A stretch of 64,000 nucleotides of DNA from Candidatus Dojkabacteria bacterium (GTDB lineage Bacteria; Patescibacteriota; Dojkabacteria; SC72; JAHDCA01): assembly GCA_030583845.1 (NCBI GenBank), contig CP129478.1:907686-971685 (forward strand), written 5' to 3'. A program made the translations under genes and the position numbers. The notes under the pieces are model-generated. The model did not search any database, was not told the origin of the DNA, and saw only the letters and a list, made by a program, of their open reading frames with translations. How positions within the stretch are numbered: position 1 is the first letter of the stretch; each line of letters begins with the position of its first letter. Below are positions 34,350 to 46,551 of this stretch, in pieces.

Positions 34350-34416
34350 TTTGTGAAACTGCGCTGCGTTTCACGAACTCCGCCTTCGTGAAGTCGCACT
34401 TGCAAAGTGCGACTTC
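34350..34416. repeat. Array of three adjacent hairpins, the last a perfect 12-bp palindrome
   Basis: Hairpin 1: gtgaaac-t-gcgctgc-gtttcac (34353-34374). Hairpin 2: cacgaa-ctccgcc-ttcgtg (34371-34389). Hairpin 3: gaagtcgcactt-gca-aagtgcgacttc (34390-34416). It shares 'aactccgccttc' plus the 'aagtcgcactt' unit with the nrdD 3' tail at 44725-44782. Confidence 0.5.
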
Positions 34417-34418
34417 AT

Positions 34419-35183
34419 TTATAGGTCTTCGAGGTAGTAGTTTAGCTCAACCATATAGTTGTTGACGCCATTTGCCCATTCATGACGCGGATTCTGTGCA
34501 CAAGGTGGGCAGTAGGTTGCCTCAATTTGGAACGGGGTTAGATCTGTGCCATATCCCTTGGCAAGCCTCTCAGTCACTACCGATATTCCGTCTGACCAGG
34601 TTGCGAATCTGCTCCATGTGCTTCTGCCGTTTATTCTCCCTCCTCGCCATCCCCAAGCGTTATTCGATCCGGCAGGAGTAATATTTCCGAATGCAGACTC
34701 CACGCCGGAAATTGATGCCACCAGCCTCCAATCGAGCCCATGCTCGTCTGCCTCTTCTACAAATACTTCAGCGTACGGATACATTGGGGAGCTGTGGTCT
34801 TCAAGAAACTGCCTCATTGCGATATTTCTTGGATCAGTAGTGATAAAGTTACTGCCAACATTTCGTGGATTGGATATATCTGTTGGTGCCTTATTGAGAT
34901 TTAGGGCAAGAGCAGAGTCAAAGATCTTTATATCGCTATTTTCAACTTCAGTGAGTATCTTACTTTGCTCTGCAGACACATTTTCAGAATTATATTCTAT
35001 CAACCTTGATTCAATTTGCGGCGTAGCGATTGGGTCGAATGCAAAAACAAATAGGAGACACATTGAGATAATAAATATTATTCGCTTCTTTCCTGTGCGT
35101 TCTGTAGTACGCCTAATAATGCTAGATGTACCCCTACCTAAACTGGATAGCTTTTTCTTACTAACTATGTCTCTTTTCATCAC
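34419..35183 (-). CDS. Secreted glucosaminidase (GH73-like) domain protein, putative peptidoglycan hydrolase
   Basis: 254 aa; N-terminal TM; 'LVASISGVESAFGNITPAGSNNAWGW' resembles the FlgJ/GH73 'ESgwG' motif. Confidence 0.4.
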   Translation of the reverse strand: MMKRDIVSKKKLSSLGRGTSSIIRRTTERTGKKRIIFIISMCLLFVFAFDPIATPQIESRLIEYNSENVSAEQSKILTEVENSDIKIFDSALALNLNKAPTDISNPRNVGSNFITTDPRNIAMRQFLEDHSSPMYPYAEVFVEEADEHGLDWRLVASISGVESAFGNITPAGSNNAWGWRGGRINGRSTWSRFATWSDGISVVTERLAKGYGTDLTPFQIEATYCPPCAQNPRHEWANGVNNYMVELNYYLEDL

Positions 35184-40207: not shown

Positions 40208-41526
40208 AATTCGAAGTCATCTTTCGTATAGCCGCTCCTCTTATCTTGTAAATTCTTCAGCATATAGTCAATCATCTGATTTTCGGTACTGAAAGATGTC
40301 AGCACAAACATCTGGCCACTGCGATAGTTTTCAAATACATACGCTGTGCCTCCCATTCCAGGAGCAGCAATTTGTGCTTCAAGCACACTTCTCCCTTCAT
40401 ACTCAATATAGGTCGAACTAACAACCTTCCATCCAGACCCTGAAAATTCTTCTTCTCTGTTTTCAGCCTCTCGCGAATCTGTTGTGTCGGAAAGTAGCCC
40501 ATCTGAGTTCGATCCTGATTCTGTGTCAGGCTTTGAGATATATGCATCATTGCTGTTTACCCTCTCGATAAATTCTACCAACATCACATCTGGAGGAAGC
40601 GAGCCCGCGCGACCAAGTGGCTCGAGGAAGACTTTTTCATCTTTGCCAATCTTTTTTAGCTCAACCCCTTGTGAATTTTCAATCTCAGTATCGTAGTAGC
40701 GGATCAGATACTCATTGGGAACTTTGAGATTCCATGGAAAGTGGGGGAGAAATTCGTTGCCTTCAGTCGAAGAGATAATAAGCTCTCGCTCATTTTCCAA
40801 GCGTACCTGGGCAGCAAGGCCCGATTTTGCTTCTTCAACTGAGATTTTCTGATACCAGATATCATTAAGCTTGTTATAGATTCTTAAGGCATTTTCTCCA
40901 TCTTTTTTGATCCAATACTCTCCATACATCATCTCGTTGGAGGTTCTTGGTACGGACAAGATATGCTCCCATCCTGATGATGGCAGGATAGCGTTGTAAT
41001 AATCTGCTACCTCCTTGAAGACTATATCCGGAGGGAGCCTGTAAACAGACTCGCCGTTAGAAAGGAATTTTTTGACGCTCTCCTCTTCAATATAATCCTT
41101 ATACACAAACTGTGAGCCAGGGTAAATCGGAAGCTCCTTGAAGCCAACAACCTTTTCTTTGGCGACAGCGACACCATTTACAGATTCAACCTTGCTAGCA
41201 CGGATAGAGACAACTTGGAGGATCCCTTGGTAGGCACCATAGATCACGAATAATGGGAGAATCATTATAGCTGCAACCTTAGCTACATTTCCAGCTGCTT
41301 TGCGAGCCTTGCCATATCCTTGGCGCTTCATTTTGGCCTTATTGCTGCTTTTGCGTGAGCTCAGGGCTCGCTTTATGCGACTAGGCTTCCTTCTGGCTAC
41401 AGGTTTTCTCTGGCGCTTGGCGTTTTTCTTAAAGCTCGAGGACATATATGTCTTTGCACCTTGTTGGCTGGTGCTACTGGCTTTCTTGGCGGCTTTTCGT
41501 TTAATCTTTTGAGGCTTCCTGGGCAT
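40204..41526 (-). CDS. Hypothetical membrane protein with about 75-aa Lys/Arg-rich cytoplasmic N-terminus and large extracytoplasmic domain
   Basis: 440 aa; N-terminus 'MPRKPQKIKRKAAKK…KMKRQGYGKARKAAG', one TM helix, then a roughly 340 aa ectodomain. Confidence 0.45.
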   Translation of the reverse strand: MPRKPQKIKRKAAKKASSTSQQGAKTYMSSSFKKNAKRQRKPVARRKPSRIKRALSSRKSSNKAKMKRQGYGKARKAAGNVAKVAAIMILPLFVIYGAYQGILQVVSIRASKVESVNGVAVAKEKVVGFKELPIYPGSQFVYKDYIEEESVKKFLSNGESVYRLPPDIVFKEVADYYNAILPSSGWEHILSVPRTSNEMMYGEYWIKKDGENALRIYNKLNDIWYQKISVEEAKSGLAAQVRLENERELIISSTEGNEFLPHFPWNLKVPNEYLIRYYDTEIENSQGVELKKIGKDEKVFLEPLGRAGSLPPDVMLVEFIERVNSNDAYISKPDTESGSNSDGLLSDTTDSREAENREEEFSGSGWKVVSSTYIEYEGRSVLEAQIAAPGMGGTAYVFENYRSGQMFVLTSFSTENQMIDYMLKNLQDKRSGYTKDDFEF

Positions 41527-41667
41527 AGTATAAATATATTACCATAAGTCTGGTAAATTATAGGACAATATTTTGCTTTATGACTTTGATCTTGGTCTGG
41601 ATTGCTAAAAGCGCGAAAGGATATTAAAATTGGTTGCCGTGATGGGTTTAGTGCGGCATGTTGATGC

Positions 41668-41738
41668 TGCGGGATCGTCTAATGGTAGGACACCGGCCTT
41701 TGAAGCCGAGAATCGGGGTTCAAATCCCTGTCCCGCAA
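41668..41738 (+). tRNA. tRNA-Gln (anticodon TTG)
   Basis: U1-A72 acceptor pair (TGCGGGA/TCCCGCA) typical of bacterial tRNA-Gln, anticodon loop CTTTGAA, T-loop TTCAAAT. CCA is not encoded. Confidence 0.8.
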
Positions 41739-41935
41739 CGTCCCGAGAGCGTAGCGATCGGTTGACGTGCGTGGATGCCACGTAGTGGCGCCCGCATCCA
41801 AGAACGAAGTGATTGGCAAGCACTCGTGGGTGTCGCGAAGCGACGCCCGCATCCGAGAGCGAAGCGATCGGCTGGTACTGGTGGATGCCGCGAAGTGAAA
41901 CGAAGCGGCGCCCGTATCCAAGAACGAACAATTAC
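41739..41935 (+). repeat. GC-rich tandem duplicated structured element between tRNA-Gln and nrdR
   Basis: Copy 1 spans about 41741-41809 and copy 2 about 41851-41929, sharing (t/a)tccgagagcg(t/a)agcgatcgg…tggatgcc(a/g)c…g(t/c)ggcgcccg(c/t)atccaagaacgaa. A third 'gacgcccgcatcc' lies at 41842-41853. Each copy folds as tggat-GCCRC-loop-GYGGC-gcccgy-atcca, with compensatory A-T to G-C changes. Local GC content is much higher than in the flanking DNA. Confidence 0.6.
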
Positions 41936-41939
41936 AACT

Positions 41940-42398
41940 ATGAAATGTCCGTACTGTGCTTCTACCAACTCAAAGGTAGTTGACAAAAGAAATAAAGAAG
42001 AAGGAATAATACGAAGGCGTAGAGAGTGTCTTAAATGCTCAAAGCGCTTCACCACATATGAACGCGTCGAAAATGTCGATCTCACCGTGGTCAAGAAAGA
42101 TGGGACACACGAGCAGTATAGCCGCGAGAAATTAACCAAAGGAGTGCGGAAAGCAGTCACAAATGCAGAGCTAAATATGGATCAGATCTCAAGCATGGTT
42201 GATGATATTGAGATGCATCTTCTAAGCATGGAGAGTACCGAGATCAACTCAAGTGAGATCGGCATGCTTGTACTCGAGAGGCTGAAAAAGCTTGACCCAC
42301 TTGGCTATATGCGTTTTGCATCAGTGTATAAAGATTTTCAATCTCTTGAGCAATTTAGAGATGAGCTGGACGAGCTGCTCAAAGAGTCAAAGAAGTAA
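41940..42398 (+). CDS. nrdR: Transcriptional repressor NrdR
   Basis: 152 aa; 'MKCPYCAST…CLKC' zinc ribbon plus an ATP-cone. The ORF-track entry 41775..42398 includes non-coding upstream repeat sequence. Confidence 0.9.
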   Translation: MKCPYCASTNSKVVDKRNKEEGIIRRRRECLKCSKRFTTYERVENVDLTVVKKDGTHEQYSREKLTKGVRKAVTNAELNMDQISSMVDDIEMHLLSMESTEINSSEIGMLVLERLKKLDPLGYMRFASVYKDFQSLEQFRDELDELLKESKK

Positions 42399-42450
42399 AT
42401 CTTCTCTGATTGATTTCATCACCTGTTACGATAGTGTTCGGCTTATAACC

Positions 42451-42467
42451 CCACATACAATTTGTGG
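42451..42467 (+). promoter_or_regulatory. NrdR-box-like palindrome upstream of nrdD
   Basis: ccACATAcAATtTGTGg is an imperfect 16-17 bp palindrome resembling the AT-rich NrdR-box consensus (acaCwAtATaTwGtgt). Confidence 0.35.
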
Positions 42468-42562
42468 AACATACCAATCCCACAACATTTCGGCTAAATA
42501 ATAATATAGGCCTAGCTCTTTGCTTGACTGGCACAACCTGTTGCGGTAGCTTGGTTGCAGAT

Positions 42563-42578
42563 GGCAATATATTGTGTA
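42563..42578 (+). promoter_or_regulatory. Second NrdR-box-like site upstream of nrdD
   Basis: ggcAATATATTGTGTa; the 3' half matches ATaTwGtgt exactly. Confidence 0.3.
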
Positions 42579-42686
42579 TGCTAAGCATTGTGAAGTGTGC
42601 ATTATTTTATCTGACTCCGCTAACCTATCATTCAGCCCAAGGCATAGAATGACAGGCTAACGGGATTAAATTAAATCGCACCAGCA

Positions 42687-44786
42687 ATGAAAGAGAGTCG
42701 TGGCTTCGCAAAGGTGATCAAGCGTGATGGACGCAAAGTTTCATTTTCCAAGCAGAGGTTGACCAATTCTATCTATAAGGCTGCCGAAGTAATCGGAGGC
42801 AGTGACAAACAGAGGGCGGAAGAGGTAGCGTCAGAAGTTATTAGCAAATTAAAAAAATCAAACGACGGTTCAGCCGTAAGCTCCACAGAAATATATCAGC
42901 AAGTTATTAGCACGCTTAAAGAGATGGGGCACGGCAAGACAGCGCACTCGTATGCTCTTTTCAGGGATATAAATAACAAGGCCAGAAATATCAAATCGCT
43001 AATTGATGCGGAAGAGCTAGTGCGGGATTACATAGGTGAATCGGATTGGCGGGTCAATGAGAATAGCAATATGGCTTACTCATGGCAGGGGCTAAACAAT
43101 CATATCTCATCCTCTGTACAGGCAAACTACTGGTTGCACACAATATACCCCAAAGAGATTGCAAATGCCCATATAGAAGCGGATATGCATATTCACGATC
43201 TGGGAATGCTGGCTATCTACTGCTGTGGATGGAGCCTGCAGGATCTACTATTGAGAGGATTTACTGGTGTTCCTGGGAAGGTATCGTGTGCCCCTCCAAA
43301 GCACTTCTCGACCGCACTTGGTCAGGTTGTTAACTTCCTCTATACATTGCAGCATGAAGCAGCAGGAGCACAGGCATTCTCAAGCTTCGATACATATCTT
43401 GCTCCATTCATCAGGTATGACAATCTTGACTACGGCAGAGTAAAGCAGGAAATTCAAGAATTTGTCTTCAATATGAATGTCCCAACACGGGTGGGATGCC
43501 AGACACCATTTACCAATATCACGATGGATATACTCCCTAGCGGTGCTTTGGCTGAGGAAAGCGTGATAATAGGGGGCAAACTGATGCCAGAAAAGTACAA
43601 AGACTTTGAACCAGAGATGCTGATGATTAATAAGGCCTTCGCAGAGGTAATGATGGAGGGCGATGCGAGTGGTAGAGTTTTTACATTCCCAATACCGACA
43701 TACAACATAACCAAAGATTTCGATTGGAACAACCCTGAGCTAACAGCTATCTGGGAAATGACAGCAAAGTATGGAATCCCATATTTCTCAAATTTCATTA
43801 ACTCAGACATGAACCCGGATGATGCGCGTTCTATGTGCTGCAGGCTAAGGCTGGATAACAGAGAGCTAAGAAAGCGTGGAGGAGGGCTGTTTGGCTCTAA
43901 CCCGCTTACAGGGAGTATCGGGGTTGTGACGATAAATATGCCCAGAATAGGCCACACGGCTAAGAGTAAGAAGCAGTTCTTTGAGAAGCTAGAGTCGATG
44001 ATGGAGCTAGCTAAAGAGAGTTTGATCATAAAGCGTAATGTGCTTGAGGATCTCTCTGAGAAGGGGCTCTATCCATACTCTCGCTACTATCTTTCAAGCG
44101 TGAAAGAAAGATTTGGTAAATATTGGAAGAATCACTTCAATACAATCGGAATTAATGGTATGAACGAGGCGTTGCTCAACTTTTTGGGCGAAGATATAAC
44201 TAGCGAGAAGGGTCATGCATTTGCTCTCGAGGTTATGGATTTTATGAGAGAGAAAATAGGTGGTTATCAAGAAGAAACAGGCGACATTTTCAACCTTGAA
44301 GCGACTCCAGCAGAATCGACAGCATATAGATTCGCGAAATCAGATGTTAAAAAGTATCCAGGGATTGTAGTAGCAAATAAGGAGGCTGACCTGGCTGACC
44401 CATACTACACCAACTCCTCACAGCTACCGGTGGGATTTACCGAGGATCTATTTGAAGCTCTCGACCTCCAAGATAGTTTGCAGTGCAAATATACTGGAGG
44501 GACTGTATTTCACGCTTTCCTTGGAGAGAGAATCCCGAATCTTGAGGCAACAAAGAAACTTGTAAAGCGAATGTGTGAGAAGTACAGTATGCCCTATTTC
44601 TCAATCACTCCAACATTTAGCATCTGTCCAAAGCATGGCTATCTTGAAGGAGAGCATGAGTATTGTCCGAGGTGTGACGAGGAGATCGGTTATGCACCTG
44701 ATGAGGAGGTTGTTGATGACTTGGCAAAGTCGCACTTATTAAGTCGGACTTATCAAGTCGCACTTCGTGAAGGCGGAGTTATATAG
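42687..44786 (+). CDS. nrdD: Anaerobic ribonucleoside-triphosphate reductase (class III), ending before the glycyl-radical motif
   Basis: 699 aa; N-terminal ATP-cone, class III RNR core and a C-terminal Zn site '…SICPKHGYLEGEHEYCPRC…'. The ORF ends '…DDLAKSHLLSRTYQVALREGGVI*' at TAG 44784-44786, with a second in-frame TAA at 44790-44792. No RVxGY motif is present. Confidence 0.9.
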   Translation: MKESRGFAKVIKRDGRKVSFSKQRLTNSIYKAAEVIGGSDKQRAEEVASEVISKLKKSNDGSAVSSTEIYQQVISTLKEMGHGKTAHSYALFRDINNKARNIKSLIDAEELVRDYIGESDWRVNENSNMAYSWQGLNNHISSSVQANYWLHTIYPKEIANAHIEADMHIHDLGMLAIYCCGWSLQDLLLRGFTGVPGKVSCAPPKHFSTALGQVVNFLYTLQHEAAGAQAFSSFDTYLAPFIRYDNLDYGRVKQEIQEFVFNMNVPTRVGCQTPFTNITMDILPSGALAEESVIIGGKLMPEKYKDFEPEMLMINKAFAEVMMEGDASGRVFTFPIPTYNITKDFDWNNPELTAIWEMTAKYGIPYFSNFINSDMNPDDARSMCCRLRLDNRELRKRGGGLFGSNPLTGSIGVVTINMPRIGHTAKSKKQFFEKLESMMELAKESLIIKRNVLEDLSEKGLYPYSRYYLSSVKERFGKYWKNHFNTIGINGMNEALLNFLGEDITSEKGHAFALEVMDFMREKIGGYQEETGDIFNLEATPAESTAYRFAKSDVKKYPGIVVANKEADLADPYYTNSSQLPVGFTEDLFEALDLQDSLQCKYTGGTVFHAFLGERIPNLEATKKLVKRMCEKYSMPYFSITPTFSICPKHGYLEGEHEYCPRCDEEIGYAPDEEVVDDLAKSHLLSRTYQVALREGGVI
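44725..44782 (+). repeat. 14-nt x3 tandem repeat plus shared 12-mer forming the nrdD 3' tail
   Basis: aagtcgcacttatt / aagtcggacttatc / aagtcgcacttcgt, followed by gaaggcggagtt. The latter is the reverse complement of 'aactccgccttc' at 34376-34387, and the aagtcgcactt unit equals the arm of the 34390-34416 palindrome. Confidence 0.5.
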
Positions 44787-44810
44787 AATTAAATTTATTA
44801 TATTAGTATT

Positions 44811-44942
44811 ATGGCAATCAAGCCAAAAAGACAGAAGTGTGAAGTATATTCGAGAGTGGTCGGCTATCTTAGGCCTGTCTCTCAGTGGAACAAAGGAAAG
44901 AAGTCTGAGTGGGTAGACAGAGTAGAGTATCGCAAGAAGTAG
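44811..44942 (+). CDS. Stand-alone 43-aa ORF encoding the class III RNR glycyl-radical motif
   Basis: Manual translation gives MAIKPKRQKCEVYSRVVGYLRPVSQWNKGKKSEWVDRVEYRKK*. 'EVYSRVVGYLRPV…NKGK' is the canonical NrdD C-terminal glycyl-radical segment. It is in the same frame as nrdD and separated from it by TAG and TAA. The six-frame track omits it because it is short. Confidence 0.6.
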   Translation: MAIKPKRQKCEVYSRVVGYLRPVSQWNKGKKSEWVDRVEYRKK

Positions 44943-44964
44943 AAGAATTTATTCTAGAACAGAT

Positions 44965-45660
44965 ATGGTTATCGCTGGCTTAGAGAAGCTTACACTTCTC
45001 GATTATCCTGGGCGGCTTTCCGCAATAATATTCACCTATGGGTGCAATATGGTCTGCTCATATTGTCACAACCCTGAGCTTGTTGTCGGAAAGCTAAATC
45101 GTAAGGCAATATATAGTGAAGACGAAGTGCTAAAGTTTCTTGAAACTCGCGTCGGAAAGCTAGATGCCGTCACTATAACAGGTGGTGAGCCCACAATGCA
45201 TAAAGACCTTCCCCAATTCATTAAAAAAGTTAAGGAGCTCGGCTTTGAATTAAAACTAGACACAAATGGGAGCTTTCCAAAGATAGTTGCTGCGATTGCA
45301 GAAACGGGGCTGGTGGATTACTGGGCGATGGACGTGAAGTATGCCGAAGAGCTTTATAGTCAAGGATTGAATGGCGGCCAGATGATTACCGGGATAAATG
45401 AGTCTATTCAGACTATAATGAATTGTGGCGCAGAGTATGAATTTCGTACAACATATATAAGGAGTCTACATAATGATGAAAGCGTAGAGAAGATTGGACA
45501 GATGGTTAATGGGGCGAAGTCATACTACATACAAAACTTCCGTCCTGGCAAGACAATAGACCCAAGCCTTACAGGCAAAGAGAGCTTTAAACCGAATGAG
45601 CTTGAGCATTTCGCACAAATAATGAGAAATTATGTGGATCGAGTAGAGATTCGGGCATGA
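44965..45660 (+). CDS. nrdG: Anaerobic ribonucleotide reductase activating protein (radical SAM)
   Basis: 231 aa; 'YGCNMVCSYCHNPE' CxxxCxxC cluster motif and a SAM-binding 'ITGGEP' motif. Confidence 0.9.
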   Translation: MVIAGLEKLTLLDYPGRLSAIIFTYGCNMVCSYCHNPELVVGKLNRKAIYSEDEVLKFLETRVGKLDAVTITGGEPTMHKDLPQFIKKVKELGFELKLDTNGSFPKIVAAIAETGLVDYWAMDVKYAEELYSQGLNGGQMITGINESIQTIMNCGAEYEFRTTYIRSLHNDESVEKIGQMVNGAKSYYIQNFRPGKTIDPSLTGKESFKPNELEHFAQIMRNYVDRVEIRA

Positions 45661-45669
45661 CTCTCGGGC

Positions 45670-46551
45670 TTATACAGTGCGCAATTTTTCTCTTAATGAA
45701 AAGAGTGAGGAGTTGACCATTGCAGGTATCCATCCACGCTTCATTCTTTTCCACATTGCCTTGAGCGAGTACCCATCAGCGAAGAACGGTCTAAACAGCC
45801 ACTCTAAGCCAAGCTTGCTGACCCATGCCGGCGGCGCCTTCTTTACTCCTGATATGTAGTCCAGAGTACCCCCCAGCCCTATTCCGACCTTTATACCTGT
45901 ATGTTTAAGGTTATCGTGCAGCCAGATCTCCTCGCGCTTTGGCGTGTAGCAGCAGAAAAGCACATCGGCACCGCTACTCTTCAAAATGTCGATCACAACC
46001 TGCCCCTCCTCTTCTTTGCGCTCGCCTGGGTAAATCTCGACAATCTCGAGACTGGGGTAAAGCTCCTGAAGTTTTTTTGCCGCTAAGATTCCAGTGTTGC
46101 CTGAACCAAAATCAAATCCACCAAGTATGGCAAGCTTATAATTTCGTTCTGCACATATCTTGGCGAGATCATATGCAACCTGAGAACCAGGTATTCGTTC
46201 TGGAACAATTTTTGTTAGCGAAGTCTTGTTGAAAATAATTGAGGCACCAGTTCCAATATATTGGCCGAGAACCTGTAACTTCCCAATCATGCCCCTGCTT
46301 TTGACCGGTCGTGACATAAATGTGGTGGCCCACAATATATATATCCCATCCGCAATTGATAGATCTGCGCCATTTAGGGCAGCTTTGAATTGCTCGTCAC
46401 TTTGTGCATTTACAATATATTCAGAGTAAGGAGTAACAATATACTTTCCTGGCGCACCGCTCTCAGCCAGTTCAGTGAACTCAGTGAGAAACTGCTCCCT
46501 TGTCAATGGGTTTATTTTGACTCCGTGTAATTCGACTATGGGTAATCTCAT
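45670..46551 (-). CDS. WecG/TagA/CpsF-family (GT26) glycosyltransferase
   Basis: 293 aa; '…GADLSIADGIYILWA…' and a C-terminal '…GIGLGGTLDYISGVKKAPPAWVSKLGLEWLFR' typical of UDP-ManNAc(A) transferases. Confidence 0.65.
   Translation of the reverse strand: MRLPIVELHGVKINPLTREQFLTEFTELAESGAPGKYIVTPYSEYIVNAQSDEQFKAALNGADLSIADGIYILWATTFMSRPVKSRGMIGKLQVLGQYIGTGASIIFNKTSLTKIVPERIPGSQVAYDLAKICAERNYKLAILGGFDFGSGNTGILAAKKLQELYPSLEIVEIYPGERKEEEGQVVIDILKSSGADVLFCCYTPKREEIWLHDNLKHTGIKVGIGLGGTLDYISGVKKAPPAWVSKLGLEWLFRPFFADGYSLKAMWKRMKRGWIPAMVNSSLFSLREKLRTV

What the first reader, a model, noticed from the sequence alone, without database searches (positions are those of the whole stretch)
42687..44942. 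Class III RNR (nrdD) ends before its glycyl-radical domain, which is encoded by a separate in-frame 43-codon ORF
The main nrdD ORF has ATP-cone, core and Zn-ribbon but ends '…LAKSHLLSRTYQVALREGGVI*' at TAG 44784-44786. A second in-frame TAA follows at 44790-44792. Then ATG 44811 opens 'MAIKPKRQKCEVYSRVVGYLRPVSQWNKGKKSEWVDRVEYRKK*', the universally conserved NrdD glycyl-radical segment (RVxGY). This ORF sits immediately upstream of the activase gene nrdG. Two in-frame stops rule out a single indel. Two readings are possible. (a) A small repeat element inserted into nrdD, leaving a non-functional or two-piece enzyme. (b) The glycyl-radical module is a genuine stand-alone 'spare-part' peptide, analogous to GrcA/YfiD for pyruvate formate-lyase. 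Reading (b) would be unusual for NrdD. Class III RNR is presumably the only dNTP source for an anaerobe with this gene set, so the locus must somehow function.
Basis: partly seen in the sequence, partly recalled or inferred. Interest (0 to 1): 0.8.

Follow-up and report, generated by a model that had tools for sequence, protein, structure and literature searches.

The report
Two-piece anaerobic ribonucleotide reductase (split NrdD)
In this candidate-phylum (Dojkabacteria-like) bacterium the anaerobic enzyme that makes DNA building blocks is encoded in two genes, a 699-residue body and a 43-residue peptide that carries the radical glycine; the same split is conserved in hundreds of lineages, including cultured anaerobes, yet I found no paper that describes it.

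Summary
nrdD (42687-44786) ends after its zinc ribbon. A separate 43-codon ORF (44811-44942) encodes the glycyl-radical loop, and nrdG follows.

It is neither an assembly error nor a recent disruption:
- Four independent assemblies have the identical junction.
- A sister species has the same split with a different tail.
- Both ORFs show the same strong purifying selection (pN/pS about 0.12-0.14).
- 118 of the 120 closest NrdD homologues also lack the Gly loop.

Stand-alone Gly-loop peptides of 41-75 aa number more than 1,100 clusters. They occur in Patescibacteria, DPANN archaea, Halanaerobiales (including the complete Halothermothrix orenii genome), Thermotogae, Synergistales and viral contigs. 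Among relatives the frame relation is random, other genes can sit between the halves, and SD-using taxa have strong SD sites. Together these rule out readthrough.

The best reading is an obligate two-subunit class III RNR, not a GrcA-type spare. True spare-type loci (complete NrdD plus an extra 88-94-aa GRD) do exist elsewhere. The 14-nt x3 repeat only shaped this species' variable tail.

I found no paper on split NrdD, and reviews state that spare parts are known only for PFL. Function is inferred, not shown.

The parts
41940..42398 (+). nrdR (transcriptional repressor of RNR genes), probable true start at Met56 of the listed ORF 41775..42398
   Evidence: Pfam Zn_ribbon_NrdR matches residues 56-96 and ATP-cone matches 104-190. 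The same gene is called as 152 aa in L001/L002.
42687..44786 (+). nrdD large subunit (699 aa): ATP-cone, catalytic barrel and zinc ribbon, but no glycyl-radical loop
   Evidence: Pfam NRDD profile positions 1-531 of 562 and ATP-cone. NCBIfam NF006126 scores 1029 bits against a cut-off of 548, covering positions 3-651 of 684. The finger-loop motif SMCCRLRLD is present.
42711..42977 (+). ATP-cone (residues 9-97)
44625..44675 (+). zinc-ribbon motif CPKH-x9-CPRC, the last conserved element of the large subunit
   Evidence: Read from the sequence. It aligns to the CxxC hairpin just before the Gly loop of T. maritima NrdD 4coi.
44682..44783 (+). variable acidic tail of the large subunit (residues 666-699), lying beyond the family profile
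   Evidence: The tail differs completely between the window, L005 and P0123. Its net charge is -6.
44727..44768 (+). 14-nt x 3 tandem repeat (AAGTCGCACTTATT) that encodes part of the tail; specific to this species
   Evidence: The 11-mer recurs as a perfect hairpin at 34389-34417 with the same flank, GAAGGCGGAGTT.
44784..44810 (+). stop TAG, a second in-frame TAA (44790-92) and a 24-nt AT-rich spacer, with no terminator or promoter on the + strand
44811..44942 (+). small subunit (43 aa): glycyl-radical loop RVVGY (Gly18 codon at 44862-44864) plus the C-terminal tail of NrdD
   Evidence: Pfam NRDD profile positions 530-562 of 562. pN 0.10 against pS 0.87 versus L005. The exact ORF is present in four assemblies.
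44965..45660 (+). nrdG, the radical-SAM activase
   Evidence: TIGR02495 NrdG2 scores 181 bits against a cut-off of 131. Pfam Radical_SAM and Fer4_12 also match.

Best explanation
The locus encodes an obligate two-polypeptide class III ribonucleotide reductase.

The 699-aa NrdD core carries the ATP-cone, the barrel with the thiyl-radical finger loop, and the zinc ribbon. The separately translated 43-aa peptide supplies the glycyl-radical loop (Gly18) and the C-terminal tail.

Proposed steps (all inferred):
1. nrdD, the peptide gene and nrdG are co-transcribed, probably under NrdR control.
2. NrdG and S-adenosylmethionine generate the radical on the peptide's glycine.
3. The peptide sits non-covalently in the barrel next to the finger-loop cysteine, as the covalently attached C-terminus does in ordinary NrdD.
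4. The acidic tail of the core and the basic leader of the peptide may hold the two new ends together.

The break lies exactly between the surface-anchored zinc ribbon and the loop that must swing out for activation. A likely consequence, also inferred, is that after oxygen cleaves the backbone at the radical glycine, only a 43-residue peptide has to be replaced.

What is shown: the split is real, old, conserved and under selection. What is inferred: assembly, activation and the benefit.
For: - Clean split in register with the family profile.
- Identical junction in four assemblies.
- Same split in a sister species at 83-84% amino-acid identity, with saturated synonymous sites and pN/pS of 0.12 (small ORF) and 0.14 (large ORF).
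- 118 of the 120 closest NrdD homologues end after CPxCDxExGY plus a short tail and lack RVxGY.
- More than 1,100 short PF13597 proteins found, and the best 120 are all 41-75 aa. In an exhaustive HMMER scan the best 150 cluster representatives are all 41-127 aa.
- 36 of the 80 best species-representative genome loci carry the motif in a short ORF. They span Patescibacteria, DPANN archaea, Halanaerobiales, Thermotogae and Synergistales.
- The complete genome of cultured Halothermothrix orenii has nrdD (676 aa), nrdG, then a 51-aa peptide gene. Halanaerobium saccharolyticum has the same order.
- The frame relation of the two ORFs is random: 8, 8 and 11 loci in the three frames. Some ORF pairs overlap. 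In SD-using taxa, strong SD sites precede the small ORF.
- An unrelated 482-aa gene, or nrdG, lies between the halves in other lineages.
- There is no terminator or promoter in the spacer. This taxon lacks SD sites in general (2 of 42 genes), so the AT-rich leader is normal.
- Core tails are acidic in 98% of cases and short-type peptide leaders are basic in 91%.
- Precedents: PFL activase installs the radical on a 7-mer peptide (PMC13450708). Activated YfiD docks into cleaved PFL (PMC8683613).
Against: - There is no transcript, protein or activity evidence for any split NrdD.
- Two AlphaFold2 runs on naturally fused relatives left the Gly-loop region at pLDDT about 30, because the alignment does not cover it. 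Docking is therefore not supported by modelling.
- This species' core tail is atypical and partly made of a tandem repeat.
- It is unknown how a non-tethered loop keeps a stable radical during the in-out movement needed for activation.
- A second, complete nrdD elsewhere in this genome cannot be excluded from 64 kb (one search covers only the window).
Confidence: 0.8

Rival explanations
1. This is a strict GrcA/YfiD-type spare part. The peptide only rescues an oxygen-cleaved, originally full-length NrdD encoded elsewhere in the genome.
For: Loci with a complete NrdD plus an extra stand-alone GRD plus NrdG do exist (L051, L060). The GRD-only genes in viral contigs and in ANMV-1 also fit a spare-part logic.
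Against: In the window the adjacent core has no Gly loop, and the same is true of 118 of 120 close homologues. No second nrdD or GRD is present in the 64 kb. The spare-type proteins belong to a different, larger class with their own zinc ribbon.
Confidence: 0.08
2. This is a recent disruption of nrdD by a small repeat element, which left a decaying or non-functional gene.
For: The tail contains a 14-nt x3 repeat. Its unit and 3' flank recur at 34376-34417. The tail is unlike that of relatives.
Against: The split is shared by the sister species, which lacks the repeat, and by the whole clade. Both ORFs are under strong purifying selection. The peptide's start codon is conserved.
Confidence: 0.03
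3. A single polypeptide is made by stop-codon readthrough or translational bypass across the 24-nt spacer.
For: The two ORFs are in frame, with the same 24-nt spacing, in both the window and L005.
Against: Two stops (TAG and TAA) would have to be passed. Among 27 split loci the frame is random (8, 8 and 11 loci in the three frames), and some ORF pairs overlap. nrdG or a 482-aa gene separates the halves in other lineages. There is no significant RNA structure at the junction (z = -1.7) and no Rfam match.
Confidence: 0.03
4. The stops are an assembly or sequencing artefact.
For: None found.
Against: The junction is identical in four independent assemblies from different runs. Homologous splits occur in hundreds of other assemblies, including a finished genome.
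Confidence: 0.01

Closest known systems
[quoted passage not shown]
   Same: All domains are present and in the same order. The core passes NCBIfam NF006126 and Pfam NRDD. The operon includes nrdG, and nrdR lies upstream.
   Different: The chain is broken between the zinc ribbon and the Gly loop. This corresponds to T. maritima residues around 609/611. The radical glycine is therefore on a separate 43-aa polypeptide. Reviews list the storage radical as 'glycine in enzyme' (PMC4390871).
GrcA/YfiD of E. coli and Y06I of phage T4 (autonomous glycyl-radical cofactors for pyruvate formate-lyase)
   Same: A small stand-alone protein that carries the RVxGY radical loop, presumably activated by the cognate radical-SAM activase and docked non-covalently into the barrel.
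   Different: It derives from NrdD, not PFL: only PF13597 matches and PF01228 does not. It is 43 aa rather than about 127 aa. It is an obligate subunit, because the core lacks its own loop. As of 2021 and 2026, spare parts are reported only for formate lyases (PMC8683613; PMC13450708).
Split class II RNR NrdJa/NrdJb (Pseudomonas aeruginosa)
   Same: An RNR catalytic chain that is naturally divided into two adjacent genes whose products must associate (cited in PMC9669993).
   Different: It belongs to a different class and is split at a different site. [quoted passage not shown]
Genes-in-pieces RNRs created by mobile elements (for example the phage Aeh1 nrdA split by a homing-endonuclease gene; fractured genes with split inteins, PMC2677866)
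   Same: The result is a two-piece RNR that still has to function.
   Different: In the window there is no endonuclease gene and no intein halves. The spacer is 24 nt, the tail is 34 aa and the leader is 9 aa. The Aeh1 case is recalled from my own knowledge and was not checked here.

Membership tests
Class III RNR catalytic subunit NrdD (PF13597 / NF006126 / TIGR02487) | Catalytic alpha/beta-barrel core matching the family profile above the curated cut-off | tested here: met
   Pfam gives 623 bits. NF006126 gives 1029 bits against a cut-off of 548.
Class III RNR catalytic subunit NrdD (PF13597 / NF006126 / TIGR02487) | Finger-loop cysteine(s) for the thiyl radical | tested here: met
   The SMCCRLRLD motif is present in the large ORF. 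These Cys columns are invariant or nearly invariant in the homologue alignments.
Class III RNR catalytic subunit NrdD (PF13597 / NF006126 / TIGR02487) | C-terminal zinc ribbon | tested here: met
   CPKH...CPRC at 44625-44675 aligns to the CxxC hairpin of 4coi. Metal binding itself is not testable here.
Class III RNR catalytic subunit NrdD (PF13597 / NF006126 / TIGR02487) | Glycyl-radical loop RVxGY on the same polypeptide | tested here: not met
   The large ORF stops at profile position 531 of 562. The loop is on the separate 43-aa ORF, at profile positions 530-562.
Class III RNR catalytic subunit NrdD (PF13597 / NF006126 / TIGR02487) | Adjacent NrdG activase | tested here: met
   TIGR02495 scores 181 bits against a cut-off of 131.
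GrcA/YfiD autonomous glycyl-radical cofactor (PF01228-type) | Small stand-alone protein with the radical-glycine motif | tested here: met
   43-aa ORF containing RVVGY.
GrcA/YfiD autonomous glycyl-radical cofactor (PF01228-type) | Homology to the PFL C-terminal Gly_radical domain | tested here: not met
   PF13597 NRDD is the only Pfam match at E <= 0.01. All NCBIfam hits are NrdD models.
GrcA/YfiD autonomous glycyl-radical cofactor (PF01228-type) | Coexists with a parent enzyme that has its own intact radical domain (a spare, not a subunit) | tested here: not met
   The adjacent core lacks the loop and there is no second nrdD in the window. The whole genome was not available.
GrcA/YfiD autonomous glycyl-radical cofactor (PF01228-type) | Restores activity to the oxygen-cleaved enzyme | not testable with these tools
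   Requires biochemistry.
Programmed recoding (readthrough or bypass) | Conserved in-frame arrangement and a recoding signal | tested here: not met
   Frames are random across relatives: 8, 8 and 11 loci in the three frames. There is no significant RNA structure and no Rfam hit.
Mobile-element split (homing endonuclease or split intein) | An intervening endonuclease gene, or intein halves at the break | tested here: not met
   The spacer is 24 nt, the tail 34 aa and the leader 9 aa, which is too short. The intervening 482-aa ORF in the long-type relatives has a signal or transmembrane segment, is Thr/Gly-rich, and has no Pfam or NCBIfam match.

The most novel reading that the evidence does not exclude
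The Gly-loop peptide may be a consumable, exchangeable radical cofactor. NrdG would activate it as a free or loosely bound peptide, it would dock into the NrdD core, and after oxygen damage it would be discarded and replaced. On this reading the loci seen here form an evolutionary series:
1. fused NrdD;
2. fused NrdD plus a spare full GRD;
3. truncated NrdD plus a full GRD;
4. truncated NrdD plus a minimal peptide.

Class III RNR would then have invented, and later become dependent on, its own spare part. This would also have spread through viruses, which carry GRD-only genes.
Probability: 0.3. Interest if true: 0.85.

Novelty: new variant of a known kind. Interest (0 to 1): 0.68.

Why it matters
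Glycyl-radical enzymes are described as carrying their radical on the catalytic chain. The only known exception is the PFL spare part GrcA/YfiD. Workers in the field have asked explicitly whether other glycyl-radical enzymes have spare parts (PMC8683613). A June 2026 review still says that only formate lyases do (PMC13450708).

This locus, together with the hundreds like it, shows that class III RNR often has its radical loop on a separate 41-75-aa peptide. A second class of 86-94-aa stand-alone NrdD radical domains sits beside complete NrdDs.

This makes several questions directly testable in cultured organisms such as Halothermothrix and Halanaerobium:
- Can an activase work on a free natural peptide?
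- How is an untethered radical loop held in place?
- Is replaceability an oxygen-tolerance strategy?

There are practical consequences too. RNR surveys that discard proteins under 400 aa (PMC9531940) miss the peptide and will score the cores as complete. Annotation pipelines label GRD-only fragments as 'nrdD'; ANMV-1 was read as encoding an RNR on that basis.

Tried and rejected
- **AlphaFold2, first run.** The naturally fused relative P0124 was modelled with alignment A4. The core was confident but the Gly-loop region had pLDDT 30-43, because only two alignment rows cover it. Uninformative for docking.
- **AlphaFold2, second run.** P0219 was modelled with alignment A6. Same outcome.
- **Deepening the alignment.** Adding small peptides and zinc-ribbon GRD proteins failed, because MAFFT placed them in the middle of the core (A3, A5).
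- **RNA structure.** A fold of 44700-44830 gave z = -1.7, which is not significant. Rfam found only tRNA-Gln in 41400-45800.
- **Promoter and terminator scan.** Nothing on the + strand at the junction, and overall counts were at the shuffle level.
- **NrdR-box consensus search.** One 3-mismatch site upstream of nrdD (42562-42577), but the window-wide count is not above chance.
- **Solved structures.** A search with the peptide gave only weak T. maritima NrdD hits, and no structure has a separate chain.
- **NCBIfam.** No dedicated model exists for the peptide.
- **Literature.** Searches for split NrdD, a separately encoded GRD, or GrcA together with NrdD found no description.
- **Considered and rejected.** Split intein (ends too short), group I/II intron (24-nt spacer), pseudogene (selection), and a dispersed MITE as the cause of the split (the motif occurs at only two sites in 64 kb, and the sister species lacks it).
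Full report
**Observation**

- The 699-codon ORF at 42687..44786 ends with TAG. A second in-frame stop, TAA, lies at 44790-44792.
- ATG 44811 opens a 43-codon ORF, MAIKPKRQKCEVYSRVVGYLRPVSQWNKGKKSEWVDRVEYRKK, which ends at 44942.
- nrdG follows at 44965..45660.

Pfam places the large ORF on NRDD profile positions 1-531 of 562, plus an N-terminal ATP-cone. It places the small ORF on positions 530-562 (E 2.5e-10, above the curated cut-off). The family profile is therefore cut cleanly in two, with nothing lost. NCBIfam agrees: NF006126 covers positions 3-651 and 649-683 of 684, and nrdG matches TIGR02495. nrdR lies upstream. The best-named homologues are from Candidatus Dojkabacteria (WS6), a Patescibacteria/CPR lineage.

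**Not an artefact and not recent damage**
- The exact 43-aa ORF and the 699-aa ORF occur on four contigs assembled independently from four sequencing runs. The 381-nt junction is identical in all of them.
- A sister species (L005-L007) has a 700-aa core at 83% identity and a 43-aa peptide at 84% identity. It shows the same 24-nt spacing but an unrelated core tail and no tandem repeat.
- Between the two species, synonymous sites are saturated (pS about 0.87). pN is 0.10 for the peptide gene and 0.125 for the core. Both are therefore under equally strong purifying selection.

**How general it is**
- Of the 120 closest homologues of the core (67-100% identity), 118 end shortly after CPxCDxExGY and lack RVxGY. 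Only P0124 and P0219 are fused. They still carry the CDEEIG/KEEHGY extension typical of split cores, which looks like a re-fusion.
- A search with the peptide returned 1,115 clusters. The best 120 are all 41-75 aa, and the 35 whose sequences I read mostly begin with Met (three with Val or Leu).
- An exhaustive HMMER scan of 1.84 billion cluster representatives gave 2,833 hits, and the best 150 are all 41-127 aa. HMMER favours short targets by a few bits, so this is a lower bound on diversity and not a ratio.
- Among the 80 best loci in species-representative genomes, 36 carry the motif in a short ORF and 42 in a full-length ORF.
- The split loci come from Dojkabacteria, Veblenbacteria, Falkowbacteria and other Patescibacteria; from Woese-, Pace- and Micrarchaeota; and from Halanaerobiaceae, Thermotogae and Synergistales.
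- The finished genome of cultured Halothermothrix orenii H168 has nrdD (676 aa), nrdG (231 aa), then a 51-aa peptide gene. Halanaerobium saccharolyticum has the same order.
- All 74 loci that could be classified among the 80 best IMG/VR viral contigs are also split, although that ranking is biased by the query.
- A rough neighbour-joining tree of 72 cores puts most minimal-peptide forms in one clade. A few fused members sit inside it and a few split ones outside it. This suggests one main origin, followed by transfer, re-fusions and some independent events (no support values).

**Separate translation, not recoding**
- The window and its sister are in frame. Across 27 non-redundant split loci, however, the frame relation is 8, 8 and 11 loci in the three frames.
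- Spacers range from an overlap of 68 nt to a gap of 179 nt.
- Taxa that use Shine-Dalgarno sites have strong ones before the small ORF.
- In Halanaerobiales nrdG lies between the halves. In the 'long-type' lineages an unrelated 482-aa signal- or TM-bearing ORF does.
- In the window only 2 of 42 long ORFs have an SD-like tetramer, so the AT-rich leader of the small ORF is the local norm.
- No + strand terminator or promoter, no significant RNA fold and no Rfam family marks the spacer.

**Where the cut falls**
- Aligned to T. maritima NrdD (4coi/4u3e), the break lies between the CxxC hairpin (…CPVCGK) and AKVDEYMRIVGY. The peptide corresponds to everything from just before the Gly loop to the C-terminus.
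- In P. copri NrdD the glycyl-radical domain comprises the zinc site, the buried Gly loop and a surface tail, and it is highly mobile (PMC11226230).
- The zinc ribbon (C, H, C, C) therefore stays on the core. The part that must leave the barrel to reach the activase is the free peptide.
- Core tails after the CxxC are acidic in 98% of cases (mean -3.4; window -6). Short-type peptide leaders are basic in 91% (mean +2.5; window +4). This hints at an electrostatic latch (correlation only).

**Mechanism (inferred)**
1. The three genes are co-transcribed.
2. NrdG installs the radical on Gly18 of the peptide.
3. The peptide occupies the barrel next to the CC finger loop.
4. Catalysis then proceeds as in ordinary NrdD.

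There are precedents. PFL activase acts on a 7-mer peptide (PMC13450708). Activated YfiD docks into cleaved PFL (PMC8683613). Because O2 cleaves glycyl-radical enzymes at the glycine, a split enzyme would lose only a 43-mer. This benefit is a hypothesis. Two AlphaFold2 runs on fused relatives could not place the loop, because the alignment lacks coverage there. Attempts to fix the alignment failed.

**The repeat**
- The 14-nt x3 repeat (44727-44768) encodes KSHLLSRTYQVALR within the variable tail.
- Its 11-mer, AAGTCGCACTT, forms a perfect 12-bp hairpin at 34389-34417. That hairpin lies directly after the stop of a minus-strand gene.
- Both sites are followed by …GAAGGCGGAGTT.
- So a small motif is shared by these two sites. 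It is absent from the sister species' junction, so it cannot have caused a split that the whole clade shares.

**Comparison and novelty**
- The locus is a member of the NrdD family in every respect except that the radical loop is on a separate chain.
- It works like GrcA/YfiD but is not a member of that family. Its homology is to NrdD only, it is an obligate partner, and it is 43 aa long.
- True spare-type arrangements do exist. L051 and L060 have a complete NrdD (profile 1-562), an 88- or 94-aa protein with its own zinc ribbon and Gly loop, and NrdG. That protein class has at least 700 clusters, mostly from Moranbacteria and Parcubacteria.
- L071 and L072 pair a truncated core with such a full GRD.
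- I found no paper that describes any of this.
- Large RNR phylogenies removed proteins under 400 aa (PMC9531940). Reviews state that spare parts are known only for formate lyases.
- The databases already hold these ORFs, named 'anaerobic ribonucleoside-triphosphate reductase' or 'hypothetical protein'.

**Verdict**

This is a real, conserved, apparently undescribed architectural variant of a well-known enzyme, and the window holds an ordinary member of it. Function is inferred from conservation only.

Noticed in passing
L051:2354-2620 and L060:3656-3940 (also L071, L072, L047, L073): Stand-alone 84-113-aa proteins carry their own CxxC...CxxC zinc ribbon plus the Gly loop. In L051 and L060 they sit between a complete, fused NrdD and NrdG, which is a true GrcA-like spare-part arrangement for class III RNR. 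The family has at least 700 clusters, mostly from Moranbacteria and Parcubacteria.
   Followed up: partly
L173:3186-3620 (ANMV-1 virus, KP703175.1): The gene annotated as nrdD in this published archaeal virus, and discussed as its oxygen-sensitive RNR, is only a 144-aa zinc-ribbon plus Gly-loop protein. No NrdD core is annotated in the 7-kb stretch examined. It may be a viral spare part analogous to T4 Y06I.
   Followed up: partly
L022:1955-3400; L090-L092:3513-4961: In the 'long-type' split (65-aa peptides starting MKELENGDL...), a conserved 481-482-aa ORF lies between the NrdD core and the peptide gene. It has an N-terminal signal or TM segment, is Thr/Gly-rich, and has no Pfam or NCBIfam match.
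   Followed up: partly
window 34376-34418: A perfect 12-bp hairpin, GAAGTCGCACTT-gca-AAGTGCGACTTC, lies directly after the stop of minus-strand ORF 34419..35183. It shares the 11-mer and the flank GAAGGCGGAGTT with the nrdD tail repeat at 44727-44780. The unit spacing is 14 nt at both sites. It could be a small REP-like or protein-binding motif, and it occurs at only these two sites in the window.
   Followed up: partly
window 41770-41895: A GC-rich 55-nt tandem repeat (2.3 copies, 77% matches) lies between tRNA-Gln (41668-41739) and nrdR. It creates a spurious 55-codon N-terminal extension of the nrdR ORF. Rfam finds nothing there.
   Followed up: no
window 42562-42577: TGGCAATATATTGTGT, about 110 nt upstream of nrdD, resembles an NrdR box (3 mismatches to the consensus I used). 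The window-wide count of such matches is not above chance.
   Followed up: partly
whole window: Only 2 of 42 ORFs of at least 200 aa have an SD-like tetramer upstream. Leaders are AT-rich, so this organism appears not to rely on Shine-Dalgarno initiation.
   Followed up: yes
P0124, P0219 (fused relatives); L020, L052: A few fused NrdDs nest among the split ones and keep the CDEEIG/KEEHGY extension typical of split cores. This suggests secondary re-fusion of the two genes.
   Followed up: partly
P0182, P0212; L016, L038, L020, L057, L080: Several NrdD cores are about 1,000-1,060 aa, roughly 330 aa longer than normal. They probably carry an intein or another insertion. I did not examine them.
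   Followed up: no
tails of P0121-P0240; leaders of P0001-P0120: Core tails after the zinc ribbon are net acidic in 98% of split cores. Leaders of short-type peptides are net basic in 91%. Long-type leaders are slightly acidic instead.
   Followed up: partly
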